In this document: in pieces, positions 9,001-15,000 of the stretch
Layout: each line of letters starts with the position of its first letter
Numbering within the stretch: the first letter of the stretch is position 1
Source of the DNA: Candidatus Woesearchaeota archaeon
GTDB taxonomy: Archaea > Nanobdellota > Nanobdellia > Woesearchaeales > WAPY01
Direction: 5' to 3'
Assembly (NCBI GenBank): GCA_049700835.1
Contig: JBNAUL010000002.1
Coordinates: forward strand, 122,129-142,128
DNA: 20,000 bases
Program-made: the position numbers

Positions 9001-12000
9001 GCAGCAACTGCAATAATAAAATCTTTAGTTGATAACATAATAATGCCCTTGATAACTCCATTCATTCCAGGAGGAACTTGGAGAACAGCAACTCTGCACT
9101 TGGGAAGAATAGTTATTAGTTGGGGAGCGTTTTTAGGAGATTTGATAAACTTTATTATAATAGCCTTTGTTGTATTCTTAATTGCAAAGGGCATTATGAA
9201 AGAGAAAAAGGTTGCAAAGAAATAATAAAATTTGGAATTCAAAATCAGAATTGAACTTTTATTTTTTGCTTTTATTTTTAATTACTTCTTTATTTTATTT
9301 TTTAATTTTGTTCTTATTTCACAACACTTTATTTTTTAATCGCTAAAGACCTCTGCTTGAAACTTGTAAATTCTGTTCTTCAGGTCCTTCCAAGCATTTG
9401 TTGGAAGCATCGCTTTTTGGCAGAGCATAATCAGGGCCTGTTCAGGGGTGCAGTTGTACTCTGTGAAAACCTGAGGCAATAAAAGTCCTGAACCAAAATC
9501 ACTTTCAATTATTAAACCATCCTCTCCAATCTTTATTTTGCTTAGGTATTCTTCTGGATTTTTGACCCTTATGAGTTCTGGAACAGTGAGCACAGAAATT
9601 TCTATCTTTATTCTGTCAAGTTCATTCTTTCTCAAAGGAAAGAATCTTGGATCTTCAAAAGCAGCGCTTCTTGCAGCAAGTATTATTCCTTGCCATAATG
9701 GATAATAAGCCCTTGGAAATCCAATACAGCCCCTAAGTTCTTCCTCTTCTTTCAGCGTTACAAATACTCCTCTTTTCTCAGAAAACTTCTTTTTGATGCA
9801 ACTTTCAACCTTTGGTTCTTTCTCTTCAAAAGCAGATTTTATTGCTTCCCTTGCAAGGTTTAATAGTTTTTTTTGCTCGTCAGAACTTATCATGAGAATT
9901 GATAAAACTGCTCAATATTAAAATATTTCTTTTTTATTTTTTGAATGCAGAAGAAAAAACTTCAGCAAACTTTTCATTTGTTTTTAGTATCCTCTTTGCA
10001 GCTTTCACCAAAGCTTCTCTTGGAGTTTCATTGCCATTTGTTTCAACTAAAAACCTAGGGGTCTTAAGCAGAGGATGGTTTATCCTATATATTGCTATCT
10101 TCACATTCTCATCGTTTAAAAGTTCGTTTTTCAGCATGTTGCACAATGTATGGCTTTCGCCTTCAATCTCAAACTCCATCCTCTTTTTTTCTTCGTTCAG
10201 AATGTTTATTTTCATTTTAAATCCTAATTTTGGAAATCTGTCTTATTTATAAATATTTCTCTTTTGCAAAAAGGAAAAATTTAATAAAGAAAACTCATTT
10301 TAAAGTCATGATGAAAAGAAAAAATAACAAAATAGTTTTTAAGAAGTCATTTCTTAGAAGGAAATCAAGGACTATAAATAAAAAGTTTATTTATTTTGTT
10401 TTAGCAGGGGTTCTTTTGGCTGTGATTTTTTTAGGAATGCTGTATTATTCTGATTTAAAGAAAACAAAGAGAATCACAGAACGCAGCTGCGGAACAATAC
10501 AGGGCTATGTGCTTCAAAGCATAGCAGATGAAGCGCAATGCAAACAATTCTGCACAGTAAGGTGCGAATCAGAACAACTTCGTTATAAAAAGAGCATTTT
10601 TGAGCAAGGAGCTCTTGGAGAGTGCAATACCTGTACATGCATATGCCACTAATTCTTTTTAAAATATAATTTCTTTTTAGAATTTCAAACAATATAAAAT
10701 CAAGAATATAAAAATATATAAATTTGTTCTGTTTTTAAAAATGCAAGAAGGAGAAGTGGGGGGTCTTATGTTTGGTTTCAAGGACAGCAGAGATGAAAAA
10801 CTGAAAAAATCATTCTCAAAGATAAAAGAAGAGATGGAAGAACACCTAAACTCAATAAATCAAAACACGCAAGAAATACAATCGCTCTACGATTATATTT
10901 ATGAACTCGAATCAAAGATTGACAAATTGAACGAAAAAATAGAAGAGTTGCAAGTAAGCATAATGAATTTAAGGAACAACAATGAGAAGCAGGAGCTCAA
11001 CCTCAAGGAGCAGGAAATCTTTTTAATGCTTTACACAGAAAAGGACTTCTTAGAAATTAATGAAATTTCAGAAAGAACAGGTTTTAGAGAGGAATTTATA
11101 ATAAGCGCTGTGAAGGAACTTATTAAAAAAGGGGTTCCAATAATAAAAAGAGAAGTTAAAGATAAACAGCTTATAAAACTTGATGATTCTTTTAGAGAGA
11201 TTCAAGCAAAGGCAGGGATTATTAAACTTAGTCAGGAACTTAGCAGAAATATGCAAAACTTTTGATGCAAAACTCTTTAAAAATTTAAAAGAACATTCAA
11301 AATTTTTTATTAAATATTAATTAAATCTAACTTTTTTATTAAGATTTGTTTTATTCTGCACTTTTTCTATTTAATTTTCTTTTTGAAGTTTTTTGAACAG
11401 AATTTAATGGTGCCTAAAAAATGCTTAAAGTTTGTGTTTTAAACTTTGTTTTCTTGTTTTTTTAAGATTATAAACTCTTTGGATGTCTCACTTTTCATGA
11501 ATATTTCATGATATTCTTAAAATATTTATGAATAAAGTTATAAATAATTGCTTTATTTTTATTAATTCTTAATACTTTTTTTATTCATCTCAATTTTATT
11601 AACTTTTTAAATTAGATTTTTAGGAAATTTAATGTAAAATATAATTTTTAAAATATTAATTATAAATAGTTTTTTGTTATTAATATTTTTTATTTATTAT
11701 TTATAATTAGTTTAAATTAAAAATATATTATATTAAATATTTTATGTTTTATATTCTTTATTATTTATATAATATATTTATAGAAAGCAATTTTATTTCA
11801 AATTATTTTTAAAGATTAATAATTATTATTTAGTGGTATCTGTAATTTAAATAGAGTGATAAAAAACCAACACTTAAGAATTGAAATTCAACCCATTACA
11901 AATGCTTTTAGTGCTTTGCAAAAAAATTATATTAAATATTATAATCTTTGATCAAAAGTTATTATCTAATATTTAATAAATATTTTTTATCATAAATTAA

Positions 12001-15000
12001 AATATTTAAGCACAATTTTTATAATATGAAATTGCATCTGCTTTTTGGAACCTGCATAATCAGCCCTTAGAATTAGCAGCATTAAACAATTCCTCATCTA
12101 TTATCGCAGGGTGTTTTCCTTTATAATATGTATTGTTAAACATTACAAATCCAAGATAGAACTTGTTTTTGAGCATCTTTTTTATGCCGACATGGCTTAT
12201 TCCAACAATCTTTGAAATCTCCCTCAATGATTTTCCTTCAGCCCTCATCTTGAATATATCTATTACTATCTGTTTTTTCTCTTCATCAACAACTGTCTCT
12301 TTGTTGATGATTTTGTAACCCAAAGGAGGCCTGTTTTGAGTATATCCTGATTTTGCTTTGTTGTTCATAACATCCTTTAATCTTTCAACTATCTGTTTTC
12401 TCTCAAACTCATTTACAGCTCCAATAATCTGCCTTATAAGAACTCCTACAGGATCTTGGCCGTATTGTTCTTTTAAACTTATAACCTCTATTCCAAGCTT
12501 CATTAACCTTCTTACAATTCCTTCTGTTTCATAGTTATCCCTTCCAAGCCTGCTGTAGGAATATATTAATAGAACATCAAAACCCTTTTTTTCTGCTTCG
12601 TCAAGCATCTCTTGAAGACCAGGCCTTGATTCAAATTTGCTTCCAGAAATGCCTTCATCTTTAAATATTTTAGTAACAGCCATATTATTTTTTGTTGCAT
12701 ACTCTGTAAGGTCCATTACTTGGGAATTTATGCTAAAACCTTCTTTTGCTTGTTCCTCTGTTGAAACTCTTACATACAAAGCAGCCCTTCTCATAAAAAC
12801 ACCAATTTAATCTGTTAATTAAGGTTTGTTCTTTTAAATTTTCAATTTTTAATTATTTTTTATCAAAAATTTATGTTAACTAAGGTAAAAAATCAATAAA
12901 ATCCTGTTAACTAACCTGTACCTTAGTAAACAAAAACAGAACAAGTATATAAATTTTTCTATATTAATATACATTTTATTATATTTTTTAAATATTTTAA
13001 GTACTTTAAATATTTTTAAGGATTCAATGAGATTCAATGAGCTAAAAATAATTTAAAGAATTCATCAATAATTTCATTTCTTATACAGCATATTTTGTCT
13101 TCTAATATAGAATCTTTAGATAACCCATCTGCCATTTTGCCATTAGTTTGAGTGCTGTATTTGGCAATTATAAAATTTAACTCGTTTAATTTCTCATTTA
13201 TAACTATGTACTTTGAATCAAGAACCTGCTGTTTAAAACTCTGTGAAACCATGTTGAATAATAAATCATCAAAATGGTGCATTAATAGTTTGCATTGGTT
13301 CTTTATGTCAATTGCTCTTGCATAATCCTTTATTTGTCCAAAGTAATGATTAACTAAGCTAATGACATTTAATATTAAGCACATAAATTGATAAAAAAAC
13401 AATGTGTTTATATATTTTTCTAATTTATTTACTTTATAGGGATTAATAAAATTATCTAATAAGATCATGCAAGAATAATTAATATAAACTTATTGTTTAT
13501 GCTAAAAACATTTAATTATATATTAAATTAAATATTGTTATTTTTGATAAAATATTTTAAGCATTATTGTATTTGATATAAAATATTTTATAATCTATAT
13601 TAAATATTAGTTATATTATAATTATACTAATATAATAATTCTTATTTAATATACCTTTTATAATTATAATAATAAAAAAAATATTTTAAAGTATTCTCTT
13701 TGTTTTATTTCTTATTTTTAAATAATGCAAAAAAGATTATTTTTATACAGAATCAATAGGTGCAATAAAAATTAATTAAAATTAGTTAGGCACCATTTAT
13801 CTTATTGTTTTTTTTGAAAAAGTGAGAGTTTGAGTTTTGAAAAGTATTATTGTAATAAGATCAAAATAAGATTACAATATTACAAGCAAAAAATCAAAAA
13901 ATTTTATTAATAAATATGGAGTGTTAAATCTAAAATATGCAGTTCTTATTTAATGATTTTCTTTGTTTAGTTTTTTGCTAAATCACAGCAATGTATACAA
14001 AAGTTAGTTAAAAGATATAGGTTCACTCTACTAAATTTTTGCATTAAGAACCTCAATAACTTAAAAATAGACCAAAATTTTTTTATAAATTCTTTTGCAA
14101 TCTTTTTATAATTTTTTAATTCCTTGTTTTGATTAATTCTTGATAATTTTTTTAAAAGTTGTTTTTTCTAAAAATAGAAAATTTGAAGATTTTAAATGGA
14201 TTTTAAATGAGATTTTCCATAATCGTTAGTTTTTTAAATAACTCCTTTTTATTTATTCTCAGAGGTGAGAATATGCTTGTTGAACCGAAGAGCGCCGAGG
14301 AACTTTACTATTACACTGATAGGGATATTTGTTCTGGTTCTGCTAGAGTTTGGGTTTTCAAGCTAAAATGCCCAAAATGCAGCAGTTATGTTCAAAAACC
14401 AAGAGATAAAAACGGAAAACCTATGAAAAAAGCAGATTATTATGAATGCCAAAAATGCGGTTTTAGAATGGATGCGAAAGAGTATGAAAGCAAGTTAATG
14501 GCTAACATTCAATACAAATGCCCTTATTGCGGGTTCAAAGGAGAATTGCAGATTCCTTTTTCAAGGAAAAATGTGTATTTTAAGGAGTTTGATGAGGCAA
14601 AAGGCAAGGAGAAGAAGAGCAAGGTTTTAGCCCTTGTCTTTAAATGTGAGAAGTGCCAAAAAGAAATTTATGTAACTCAAAAGATGAAGGATGTAAAGTA
14701 GTAAAAATTAAAAAAATTTTTGTTTTTTAATTGGGTTATCTAGCTGATTTGTAATGCTTAAGACATCTCTTAATTTTACCCTCAAGATTTCCATTGTTGT
14801 TATCTTTAACAAATCCGTCCTTCAACAGCAAAATTAGTTTGGGCAGGTGGACTTCTAAATTTTCGTGAAACATTTCAATATCGTTTTCAGAAAATTGATA
14901 AATTGCATTAAAAAGAACATAGTATTCCTTTTCAACAAGTTTCCTGTTAAGAGAATTCCTTCTTTTCTGAGAATAGTTTTTGAACTCTTCTTTGTCCTCT

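What a model noticed while it worked through the whole genome (the two positions that open the first line are those of the whole stretch)
10706..14206. No tyrosine recombinase (XerA) in the whole family; a small serine recombinase with a conserved upstream site stands in [...]
A six-frame search finds no tyrosine recombinase in this 98.7%-complete genome nor in the five other genomes of its family, although 22 of 25 sampled genomes of other Woesearchaeales families have XerA-like genes; the only site-specific recombinase here is the 244-aa serine recombinase g00600 (C2 134188-134922), set between two 0.8-kb spacers of 15-16% G+C. I read g00600 as a non-orthologous replacement of XerA, resolving chromosome dimers at the palindromic site just upstream of its gene. 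New: every chromosome-dimer resolution system known so far uses tyrosine recombinases (XerCD, XerS, XerH, XerA); a resolvase-type one would be a first.
Evidence so far: PF00589 six-frame search: 0 hits at E<=1 in G000 while all 14 control genomes ring; no Phage_integrase row in pfam.tsv. Relatives: 0 of 6 in family f1 (completeness 84-100%), 22 of 25 in other families. g00600: Resolvase 2e-38 + Recombinase 6e-12. tblastn of g00600 in the same 31 genomes: hits only in G000, G001 (90% id), G005 (69%), all f1, and G006 (32%, family f2), i.e. 4 of the 9 genomes without a tyrosine recombinase and 0 of the 22 with one. Synteny: g00602/g00601 homologues flank it in G001; in G006 a g00599 homologue (40% id) lies beside it as here. 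Upstream of the start codon: CTAAGGTACAGGTTAGTTAAC-N18-TACCTTAGTTAAC, a stretch that blastn aligns at 79% between G000 and G005 while th [...]
(Added by a program. Inside this text positions count along the whole contig: contig position 122,129 is position 1 of the stretch shown here. "Call 12" and the like, gene names such as g00115 and contig names such as C1 are that model's own, and its searches are not shown. The text may have been shortened before it was handed on; [...] marks where a part breaks off. The agent that wrote the report below was given it as the finding of a first reader that could run no searches.)

Follow-up and report, generated by a model that had tools for sequence, protein, structure and literature searches.

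The report
Serine recombinase in XerA's chromosomal slot
In some tiny DPANN archaea, a serine-type DNA recombinase with its own single target site sits exactly where relatives keep the XerA/dif system that unlinks chromosome dimers, so it may be the first serine-family chromosome-dimer resolvase, though its function is inferred, not shown.

Summary
G000 (98.7% complete) and all 6 genomes of its family lack any tyrosine recombinase. G000 also lacks a dif site. It has one 244-aa serine recombinase (SerRec, window 12060-12794, minus strand). SerRec is under strong purifying selection, and a conserved, genome-unique cluster of binding sites lies over its promoter.

- The neighbour g00599 (coiled coil plus winged helix) is a near-universal single-copy gene of the order.
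- In about 40% of genomes, the canonical XerA gene lies just downstream of g00599, with a textbook 11-6-11 dif site on its promoter.
- SerRec, with its own promoter-borne palindrome (2-bp centre), fills this same slot in at least 5 separate lineages.
- Carriers lack that XerA/dif cassette: 8 of 8 in the order sample, and all but one of 31 further carriers.

So a recombinase-plus-site cassette was swapped in situ, repeatedly.

That SerRec resolves chromosome dimers is inferred, not shown. About half of the carriers keep a second Xer paralogue. Six near-complete genomes have neither recombinase. The locus is not at a skew switch.

The 31-nt inverted repeat is chance-level similarity between two promoters, so the invertase reading is rejected.

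The parts
10706..10736 (+). Promoter region of g00599 (TATA-like box and start region). This is the left arm of the 31-nt inverted repeat.
   Evidence: It ends 4 nt before the ATG at 10741. It carries no SerRec half-site motif. g599 promoters in 7 other genomes show no likeness to SerRec promoters.
10741..11265 (+). g00599: a 174-aa DNA-binding protein with a long coiled-coil helix (residues 11-80) and a MarR/ArsR-like winged helix. It is a near-universal single-copy gene of the order and the anchor of the recombinase slot.
   Evidence: Found in 102 of 121 genomes. AlphaFold model pLDDT 83.5. Foldseek hits to the MarR family at E about 1e-4. Pfam gives only sub-threshold hits. Atlas places it in uncharacterised HTH_11-like Woesearchaeota clusters.
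11266..12059 (.). AT-rich spacer (core at 15.3% G+C) between the convergent 3' ends of g00599 and SerRec. It is specific to this lineage.
   Evidence: second-longest AT island of the genome. No XerA remnant. No tRNA or Rfam hit. The gap between the g599 and SerRec tblastn matches is 89 nt in G105 and 270 nt in G001.
12060..12794 (-). Serine recombinase g00600 (244 aa). It has a catalytic domain of the large-serine-recombinase type plus a 'Recombinase' DNA-binding domain, but no zinc ribbon or coiled coil.
   Evidence: Pfam. Nearest solved structure is the TP901-1 integrase catalytic domain, 4.4e-23. R9, S11, R82 and R85 are invariant in 13 homologues. dN/dS is 0.037 against G123.
12814..12826 (-). 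Half-site 3 (GTTAATTAAGGTT on the + strand), 20 nt upstream of the ATG.
   Evidence: Conserved block CCTTAATTAACA in G000, G123 and G124, while synonymous sites are saturated.
12875..12887 (-). Half-site 2 (GTTAACTAAGGTA on the + strand).
12906..12931 (-). Site A, the likely crossover site: 26 bp made of two 12-bp imperfect inverted arms (9 of 12) around a 2-bp centre. On the gene's strand it reads GTTTACTAAGGT AC AGGTTAGTTAAC.
   Evidence: Unique in the 1.07-Mb genome. Nearly invariant between two genera. Homologues in other families have a palindrome with a 2-bp centre at the same place, directly after the TATA box. That palindrome is single-copy in 7 of the 12 carrier genomes that matched, out of 15 scanned.
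12932..12962 (-). SerRec promoter. The TATA box reads TTTATATA on the minus strand (window 12946-12953). This is the right arm of the 31-nt inverted repeat.
   Evidence: The word AAATTTATATACTT or a close variant precedes the site in G001, G080, G105, L117 and L080 too.
13034..13468 (-). g00601: a 144-aa fast-evolving protein of unknown function, co-oriented with SerRec and upstream of it.
   Evidence: 36% identical homologue at the same place in G123. No Pfam or NCBIfam hit.
13469..14206 (.). Second AT-rich spacer (core at 16.2% G+C).
   Evidence: third-longest AT island of the genome.

Best explanation
The 244-aa serine recombinase and the site cluster on its own promoter form a chromosomal 'recombinase plus site' cassette. 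This cassette has replaced, in place, the XerA/dif cassette that most Woesearchaeales keep just downstream of the conserved gene g00599.

Most likely mechanism:
1. SerRec dimers bind the single 26-bp site A (12-2-12) and the two extra half-sites between promoter and start codon. This also represses the gene's own promoter.
2. When homologous recombination (RadA is present) joins two sister chromosomes into a dimer, the site is present twice in direct repeat.
3. A SerRec tetramer then synapses the two copies, cuts at the central dinucleotide and exchanges strands. This restores monomers, as serine resolvases do for plasmid multimers.

Shown here:
- the enzyme family and its intact catalytic residues;
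- the conserved, genome-unique site;
- the positional swap with XerA/dif, and its recurrence;
- the loss of XerA and dif.

Inferred: binding, autoregulation, recombination and the dimer-resolving role.
For: 1. Loss of the Xer system.
- No tyrosine recombinase in G000 or in 0 of 6 family genomes.
- No dif-like site in G000.
- RadA is present, so dimers can arise.

2. Same slot.
- g599 occurs in 102 of 121 genomes of the order.
- In 42 of the 100 listed g599-bearing genomes, an XerA-model match lies within 5 kb of it. In 34 of these it is the genome's best match.
- In an independent set of 80 g599 loci, XerA lies within 6 kb in 27. It is downstream of g599 in 24 of those. SerRec lies there in 3.
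- SerRec lies beside g599 in G000, G001, G105 and G108.
- SerRec lies within 3.5 kb downstream of g599 in 21 of 32 DPANN-type SerRec loci.

3. Like for like.
- The g599-linked XerA genes carry a canonical 11-6-11 dif right after their TATA box. It is found at <=3 mismatches of 14 in 20 of 48 such genes, against 2 of 20 in the other Xer clade.
- A whole-genome scan puts a hit beside that gene in 5 of 5 control genomes: exact in 4 (1.4 kb from the gene in G029) and with 1 mismatch in the fifth.
- SerRec genes carry a palindrome with a 2-bp centre at the same position after the same kind of TATA box.

4. Exclusion.
- 8 of 8 carriers in the order sample lack the g599-linked XerA type.
- 21 full-length XerA-like genes from carriers were placed on a tree. 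17-18 fall in a clade that holds none of the 35 g599-adjacent genes. 2 fall in another never-adjacent subclade. 1 is a long branch. Only 1 (G138) groups with the linked type.
- 13 of 31 further carriers have no XerA-like match at all.
- No exact dif match in 5 of 5 carriers scanned.

5. Recurrence. On a g599 tree the 14 SerRec-linked rows (13 distinct) need at least 11 changes, at least 5 of them forced by strongly supported branches. One SerRec-linked g599 is sister to an XerA-linked one at SH-aLRT 99.

6. One site per genome. This holds in G000. The core palindrome also occurs exactly once, upstream of SerRec, in G001, G108 and G118. It occurs exactly once genome-wide in G125, G134, G146 and G148.

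7. Selection. dN/dS is 0.037, and three site blocks stay nearly invariant although dS exceeds 1.8.

8. Chromosomal setting. The locus lies among core genes: thermosome, RpoL, AMMECR1 and MetRS.
Against: 1. No experiment and no read-level evidence.

2. The locus is not at a replication-polarity switch. GC and GTTC skews turn at C1:105 kb (next to orc1/cdc6), at C1:425 kb and at C2:300-330 kb. They do not turn at C2:134 kb.

3. In the one single-contig carrier genome, G097, SerRec lies 116 degrees from orc1, while its remaining Xer paralogue lies near the antipode.

4. The cassette is dispensable in some lineages.
- 14 of the 17 genomes without PF00589 also lack the SerRec.
- Six of them are 91-100% complete.
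- No other recombinase sits beside their g599.

5. Three of 6 genomes of the family show no SerRec. They also lack g599 and are fragmented, so this may be an assembly gap.

6. About half of the carriers keep a second Xer paralogue. Some of those genes have a dif-like variant site of their own (8 of 33). That paralogue might be the real dimer resolvase.

7. The clade that separates the two Xer paralogues has only ultrafast bootstrap 64 / SH-aLRT 94.

8. The g599-XerA adjacency could be plain inherited gene order.
Confidence: 0.5

Rival explanations
1. The cassette is an attachment system, not a dimer resolvase. SerRec would recombine its chromosomal site with a matching site on an extrachromosomal plasmid or virus of these archaea (integration and excision). 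Or it inherited some non-resolving job of the g599-linked Xer paralogue, while a second Xer paralogue (where present) resolves dimers.
For: - The catalytic domain is nearest to phage and SCC integrases: TP901-1 at 4.4e-23 and CcrB at 128 bits.
- The two arms of site A differ at 3 of 12 positions, as hybrid att sites do.
- 4 of 8 carriers in the order sample, and 18 of 31 further carriers, keep another XerA-like gene.
- Some XerA-2 genes have their own dif-like variant.
- In G097 that paralogue, not SerRec, lies near the antipode of orc1.
Against: - SerRec lacks the zinc-ribbon and coiled-coil domains that large serine integrases use to tell att sites apart (that role is recalled, not tested).
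- In other families the site is a perfect or near-perfect palindrome, not a hybrid.
- No second site or flanking mobile genes were found, and the neighbours are core genes.
- The gene pair is inherited with g599 across Woese- and Pacearchaeota.
Confidence: 0.2
2. The cassette is a domesticated or merely persistent remnant of a mobile element. It now only represses its own promoter, or does nothing useful. These reduced genomes would simply do without dimer resolution.
For: - Six 91-100%-complete genomes of the order have neither XerA nor SerRec, and there is no recombinase at their g599 slot.
- Degenerate XerA copies (with stops, or truncated) sit beside g599 in several genomes, so the slot tolerates decay.
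- 3 of 6 family genomes show no SerRec.
Against: - dN/dS is 0.037.
- All catalytic residues are invariant in 13 homologues at 31-90% identity.
- The site blocks are conserved beyond saturated synonymous divergence.
- The same slot was filled repeatedly.
A pure repressor would not need the catalytic serine and arginines.
Confidence: 0.12
3. SerRec is a Hin/Gin-like invertase that flips the 2.2-kb segment (g00599 plus g00600) between the 31-nt inverted repeats.
For: The repeat exists (27 of 31) and brackets both genes. Site A has the 12-2-12 layout that I recall for hix/gix sites.
Against: - 9 of 40 shuffles give a repeat as good.
- Both arms are promoter regions that read toward their genes.
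- The left arm has no SerRec half-site.
- The shared 13-mer is not kept in G124, where g599 and SerRec lie on different contigs.
- g599 promoters of 7 other genomes carry no SerRec site.
Confidence: 0.03

Closest known systems
Single-recombinase Xer modules: XerS/difSL, XerH/difH and archaeal xerA/dif modules
   Same: One recombinase gene is genetically linked to one single-copy chromosomal site. The module can be moved and displaced as a unit (passages of PMC5357621; PMC8987985). Here the site also lies right on the gene's promoter, as I found for the Woesearchaeal XerA/dif.
   Different: Those enzymes are tyrosine recombinases acting on 11-bp arms around a 6-11-bp spacer. This is a serine recombinase with 12-bp arms around a 2-bp centre plus two extra half-sites. 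The locus is not at a skew switch.
Serine-resolvase multimer resolution systems of plasmids and transposons (res/TnpR of Tn3 and gamma-delta, and plasmid resolvases)
   Same: A serine recombinase acts on directly repeated copies of a site cluster that lies upstream of its own gene and overlaps its promoter, with several binding sites. The res layout is recalled, not tested here.
   Different: This cassette is chromosomal, among core genes, and is inherited with a host gene across an order. The DNA-binding domain is the 'Recombinase' domain of large serine recombinases, not the small C-terminal HTH. The site cluster is one full site plus two half-sites rather than three dimer sites. Gamma-delta resolvase matches only at 6.5e-06.
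Large serine recombinases (TP901-1 integrase, CcrB, XisF)
   Same: Nearest relatives by sequence: TP901-1 catalytic domain at 4.4e-23; CcrB at 128 bits and XisF at 72 bits, both far below family cut-offs. The Resolvase plus Recombinase domain order is the same.
   Different: SerRec is half the length. It has no zinc ribbon (PF13408) and no coiled coil. Longer homologues in bacteria do carry PF13408. There is no att pair and no mobile element around it.
Hin/Gin DNA invertases
   Same: 26-bp site with a 2-bp centre (layout recalled). The Gin-type DNA-invertase structure matches at 4.7e-08.
   Different: There is no second site in inverted orientation and no evidence of an invertible segment.

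Membership tests
Serine recombinase superfamily (Pfam PF00239) | Catalytic domain with the nucleophilic serine and conserved arginines | tested here: met
   PF00239 at 3.8e-37 over residues 4-150. R9, S11, R82 and R85 are invariant in 13 homologues. S11 aligns with the TP901-1 catalytic-domain motif.
Large serine recombinases (integrases) | 'Recombinase' domain (PF07508) after the catalytic domain | tested here: met
   PF07508 at 9.8e-12, residues 171-242.
Large serine recombinases (integrases) | Zinc-ribbon domain with embedded coiled coil; length 400-700 aa | tested here: not met
   No PF13408 hit and only 244 aa. The protein ends just after the Recombinase domain in all 12 archaeal homologues but one. 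The longer bacterial homologues carry PF13408.
Small resolvase/invertase (Tn3, gamma-delta, Hin, Gin) | Short C-terminal HTH (HTH_7) as the DNA-binding domain; about 180-200 aa | tested here: not met
   The C-terminal part matches PF07508. There is only a sub-threshold HTH_38 hit at 17 bits.
DNA invertase systems (hix/gix) | Two recombinase sites in inverted orientation flanking the segment | tested here: not met
   The half-site motif occurs only upstream of SerRec. The 31-nt repeat is at chance level.
Chromosome dimer resolution systems (Xer/dif type) | Tyrosine recombinase of the Xer family | tested here: not met
   No PF00589 or NF040815 match in G000. The enzyme here is a serine recombinase.
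Chromosome dimer resolution systems (Xer/dif type) | One recombination site per chromosome | tested here: met
   Site A and its half-sites are unique in the 1.07-Mb assembly. There is a single genome-wide core match in 7 other carriers.
Chromosome dimer resolution systems (Xer/dif type) | Site in the replication-termination / polarity-switch region | tested here: not met
   GC and GTTC skews turn elsewhere. Caveats: the assembly has 4 contigs of unknown order, and archaeal dif sites are reported at 122-144 degrees from oriC rather than 180 (passage of PMC5357621).
Chromosome dimer resolution systems (Xer/dif type) | Resolves dimers in vivo or in vitro | not testable with these tools
   Needs biochemistry or genetics.
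Plasmid/transposon res-type resolution systems | Site cluster upstream of the resolvase gene, overlapping its promoter | tested here: met
   The order is TATA box, site A, two half-sites, ATG.
Plasmid/transposon res-type resolution systems | Carried on a plasmid or transposon | tested here: not met
   The contig is 439 kb and has thermosome, RpoL and MetRS beside the locus. The cassette is linked to g599 across the order.

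The most novel reading that the evidence does not exclude
DPANN archaea have a chromosome-dimer resolution system built on a serine recombinase, with a 12-2-12 site on its own promoter. It has displaced XerA/dif at one fixed chromosomal slot several times. The slot's constant neighbour g00599 (coiled coil plus winged helix) would be the long-sought archaeal control factor that directs whichever recombinase sits there toward resolution. It would play the part that FtsK plays in bacteria.
Probability: 0.15. Interest if true: 0.9.

Novelty: new variant of a known kind. Interest (0 to 1): 0.78.

Why it matters
Every chromosome-dimer resolution system described so far uses a tyrosine recombinase. 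[quoted passage not shown] My four literature searches found no report of one.

The data here give a concrete, testable candidate. It comes with a defined 26-bp site and a natural experiment: the same chromosomal slot holds either XerA/dif or SerRec/site in sister lineages.

The data also show that Woesearchaeales keep XerA and dif as a promoter-linked module beside a conserved DNA-binding gene, and that they have a second Xer paralogue. Both points bear on the open question of how archaea, which lack FtsK, bias Xer recombination toward resolution.

A compact 244-aa serine recombinase with a short defined site could also be of interest as a genome-engineering tool.

Tried and rejected
- Inversion switch: rejected.
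- Truncated pseudogene of a large serine integrase: rejected. The roughly 245-270-aa form is conserved in 11 of 12 archaeal homologues and is under purifying selection.
- Decayed xerA in the AT-rich spacers: none found; best score is below 0 bits.
- tRNA or known RNA in the locus: none.
- Bacterial promoter/terminator scan: at shuffle level, and not relevant to archaea.
- Terminus location:
  - GC and GTTC skews do not turn at the locus.
  - Positions relative to orc1 in genomes G016, G085, G097 and G098 (the first three single contigs; G098's 1.0-Mb contig of four) give no consistent pattern.
- Shared repeats between the oriC island and the spacers: only low-complexity A/T words.
- Another recombinase type at the g599 slot of genomes lacking both enzymes: none found in the genomes looked at.
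No read evidence exists either way.
- No complex prediction was run. I do not claim that g599 binds SerRec.
- Two genome-search runs gave no answer. The first was repeated. The second was replaced by my own HMM scan.

Full report
WHAT IS THERE

The window is G000:C2:122129-142128, from a 1.07-Mb, 4-contig, 98.7%-complete genome. The flagged stretch lies among core genes: thermosome, AMMECR1 and RNA polymerase subunit L to the left, methionyl-tRNA synthetase to the right.

In order, the stretch holds:
- g00599 (10741-11265, +)
- an AT-rich spacer
- the serine recombinase g00600 (SerRec, 12060-12794, -)
- SerRec's upstream region
- g00601 (13034-13468, -)
- a second AT-rich spacer
- g00602 (14207-14701, +)

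SerRec has a Resolvase domain (3.8e-37) followed by the 'Recombinase' domain of large serine recombinases (9.8e-12). It has no zinc ribbon. Its catalytic domain is closest to that of the TP901-1 integrase (4.4e-23). R9, S11, R82 and R85 are invariant in 13 homologues that are 31-90% identical. dN/dS against the congeneric G123 is 0.037.

CHECK OF THE OBSERVATION

Every checkable statement was reproduced; details are in the observation check. In short:
- PF00589 gives 0 hits in G000 and 0 of 6 in the family.
- My own XerA and SerRec profiles over all ORFs of the genome find no tyrosine recombinase and only this one serine recombinase.
- 104 of 121 genomes, one per family of the order, have PF00589.
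- 101 of 121 match the NCBIfam XerA model at 1e-25.
- SerRec is found in 3 of 6 family genomes.
- The three genomes without it also lack g599, which 102 of 121 genomes of the order have.
- Two of these three break or run out close to the locus. The G053 contig starts 176 nt before g602, and G121 has only 1.9 kb there. So absence there is uncertain.

THE UPSTREAM SITE

On the gene's strand the order is:
1. a TATA box;
2. 11 nt;
3. a 26-bp site, GTTTACTAAGGT AC AGGTTAGTTAAC, with 12-bp arms (9 of 12 symmetric) and a 2-bp centre;
4. 18 nt;
5. a half-site, TACCTTAGTTAAC;
6. about 48 nt;
7. a third half-site, AACCTTAATTAAC;
8. 20 nt before the ATG.

The motif occurs nowhere else in the genome. Between the two genera of the family these three blocks are almost invariant, while synonymous sites are saturated (dS > 1.8).

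SerRec homologues in other families show the same plan with other letters. A TATA word (AAATTTATATACTT or a close variant) is followed at once by a palindrome with a 2-bp centre. Examples are ACTTAGGG AG CCCTAAGT in L117, ACTAAGGG CA CCCTTAGT in G108, and ATTCCAAGAAGGG AA CCCTTGTTGGAAT in G118. A further half-site lies near the ATG.

A genome-wide scan for the core WAGGGNNCCCTW in 15 carrier genomes gave these results:
- The only match in G001, G108 and G118 is the one just upstream of SerRec.
- G125, G134, G146 and G148 also have exactly one match genome-wide.
- Counts elsewhere are no higher than for the reversed control pattern.
- 3 of the 15 genomes (G055, G080, G097) have no match to this core.

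A 2-bp centre is what serine recombinases cut (passage of PMC5357621).

THE INVERTED REPEAT

- Both arms are promoter regions reading toward their genes.
- The left arm has no SerRec half-site.
- The 13-nt core is not kept in G124, where g599 and SerRec lie on different contigs.
- g599 promoters in 7 other genomes resemble neither the SerRec promoter nor its site.
- 9 of 40 block-wise Markov shuffles of the 5-kb region give a repeat at least as good.

I reject the invertase reading.

THE KEY NEW RESULT: THE SLOT

g00599 is a 174-aa protein with one long helix (residues 11-80) and a MarR/ArsR-like winged helix. The model has pLDDT 83.5, the Foldseek hits are at E about 1e-4, and it has no curated family. 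It is a near-universal single-copy gene of the order (102 of 121 genomes).

Setting its coordinates against the 150 listed XerA-model matches (43 more were not listed) gives, for the 100 listed g599-bearing genomes:
- 42 have an XerA-like gene within 5 kb, mostly within 1.5 kb. In 34 of these it is the genome's best match.
- 38 have listed XerA matches only elsewhere.
- 20 have none listed.

An independent set of 80 g599 loci from public species genomes gives XerA within 6 kb in 27, and downstream of g599 in 24 of those. Many of these loci are cut by contig ends.

In G000, G001, G105 and G108 the gene in that place is SerRec. The same holds in L104 and L117 and, 4.5 kb away, in L080. Among 32 DPANN-type SerRec loci from public genomes (profile score of at least 320 bits), g599 lies within 3.5 kb in 21: upstream on the same strand in 20 and convergent in 1. 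Thirteen of these are divergent g599 forms scoring 39-57 bits. Several of the other 11 loci have under 1 kb of upstream sequence.

LIKE FOR LIKE

The g599-linked XerA genes carry a textbook dif: 11-bp inverted arms around a 6-bp spacer. One example is TGCGTATAA GGTACA TTATACGCA. It lies directly after their TATA box.
- With a 14-position consensus and <=3 mismatches, it is found within 300 nt upstream of 20 of 48 genes of that group, against 2 of 20 genes of the other Xer clade.
- A whole-genome pattern scan puts an exact match beside the linked XerA in G018, G069 and G017, one 1.4 kb from it in G029, and a 1-mismatch match beside it in G005. That is 5 of 5 controls.
- Five carriers (G080, G097, G105, G118, G108) have no exact match, and their 1-mismatch matches are at control level.
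- G000 has none.

So the same slot holds either TATA-dif-xerA or TATA-palindrome-SerRec.

TWO XER PARALOGUES

Many genomes have two XerA-like genes.
- In a tree of 68 proteins, a clade of 20 (SH-aLRT 92) holds none of the 35 g599-adjacent genes. It holds all four XerA genes of the carriers G080, G097, G105 and G118.
- With 17 more genes from 15 of 31 further carriers, that clade has 33 rows (17 from carriers, 0 adjacent).
- In the slower search it has 34 rows (18 from carriers), with ultrafast bootstrap 64 and SH-aLRT 94. The clade is therefore only moderately supported.
- Two carrier genes fall in another never-adjacent subclade. One was a long branch and was left out of the slow tree.
- One gene, from G138 (a single-cell genome), groups with the linked type. 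There SerRec sits in a different, operon-like context without the usual promoter.
- G108 has only a 375-aa integrase-like gene (114 bits).
- 13 of the 31 further carriers have no XerA-like match at 1e-20, but their completeness is unknown.
- Four carriers had only weak partial matches that I did not place.
- The order sample and the 31 further carriers may overlap.
- Some genes of the second clade have a variant dif-like site about 80 nt upstream (8 of 33).

RECURRENCE

On a tree of 95 g599 proteins, the 14 SerRec-linked rows need at least 11 changes, at least 5 of them forced by strongly supported branches. Thirteen rows are distinct, because L104 and L163 are the same contig. L170 (SerRec-linked) is sister to L106 (XerA-linked) at SH-aLRT 99. 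This is a quick tree of a short protein, so it gives an order of magnitude, not a count of events.

WHAT SPEAKS AGAINST DIMER RESOLUTION

- Skews of G and of GTTC (the reported archaeal polarised word; passage of PMC5357621) turn at three places. These are C1:105 kb beside orc1/cdc6, C1:425 kb, and C2:300-330 kb. They do not turn at C2:134 kb.
- In G097, SerRec lies 116 degrees from orc1, and the remaining Xer paralogue lies near the antipode.
- 14 of the 17 genomes without PF00589 also lack the SerRec. Six of them are 91-100% complete.
- No other recombinase lies by their g599.
- No read-level test was possible.
- RadA is present, so dimers can form if the chromosome is circular.

COMPARISON WITH WHAT IS KNOWN

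In function, the cassette would work like single-recombinase Xer modules and like serine-resolvase multimer resolution systems of plasmids. It is a member of neither.
- It is not a tyrosine recombinase.
- It is not on a mobile replicon.
- By sequence it belongs to the large-serine-recombinase lineage but lacks two of its defining domains.

Passages of a 2022 review (PMC8987985) state that no chromosome is known to be segregated with a serine resolvase. A 2021 review (passages of PMC8371274) says archaeal serine recombinases have been seen only in transposons and never studied. Searches found no report of such a system, and none pairing 'Woesearchaeota' with 'serine recombinase'. I saw only listings and passages, not whole texts or supplements.

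VERDICT

- The in-situ, repeated exchange of an XerA/dif cassette for a SerRec/site cassette is well supported (about 0.8).
- That SerRec resolves chromosome dimers is the best single reading (about 0.5), but it is inferred.
- Unpublished genomes G112 and G125 enter only as single rows in the tallies.

Noticed in passing
loci L051, L053, L060, L061, L133, L134, L138 and others (upstream of XerA genes): In Woesearchaeales the canonical dif site lies directly after the TATA box of the g599-linked xerA gene, forming a promoter-borne xerA/dif module. Several genomes have a degenerate xerA (with stops, or truncated to the catalytic half) at that slot and an intact paralogue elsewhere.
   Followed up: partly
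loci L119-L132, L145, L250, L251 (second Xer clade): A second Xer paralogue that is never adjacent to g599 is widespread. A subclade of it has its own variant site about 80 nt upstream (e.g. TATAACACCTATTTGACGCAGT). So many of these small genomes may carry two Xer/site modules.
   Followed up: partly
G000 C1:110259-111447; C1:425384-425993; window 11359-12053 and 13298-13944: The four longest AT-rich islands of the genome are: the one beside orc1/cdc6 at the GC-skew minimum; one at the GC-skew maximum where genes converge; and the two spacers flanking SerRec. Genes also diverge from the SerRec locus. Whether these spacers have a replication-related role is open.
   Followed up: partly
window 12911-12919 (within site A) versus dif sites of L053, L060, L061, L133: Nine consecutive bases (TAAGGTACA), including the whole 6-bp dif spacer of several relatives, recur in the family's SerRec site A. 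This could be a footprint of the replaced dif, or chance.
   Followed up: no
window 17860-19024: Two overlapping ORFs on opposite strands both match the CitMHS transporter family. ORF 17860-18471 (+) matches profile positions 204-319, and ORF 18209-19024 (-) matches positions 15-208. This looks like a gene split by a local inversion, or a pseudogene.
   Followed up: no
locus L174 (Nanoarchaeota single-cell genome), 4493-7897: Here the SerRec homologue lies in a tight array with two small ORFs, without the usual promoter and site. An XerA of the g599-linked type lies 1.3 kb downstream. This is the only carrier seen with both.
   Followed up: partly
window 14207-14701 and loci L025, L032, L033, L034: g00602, a protein with several CxxC zinc-ribbon motifs, is conserved next to the methionyl-tRNA synthetase gene in 5 of the 6 family genomes; the G122 contig is cut inside the MetRS gene.
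   Followed up: no
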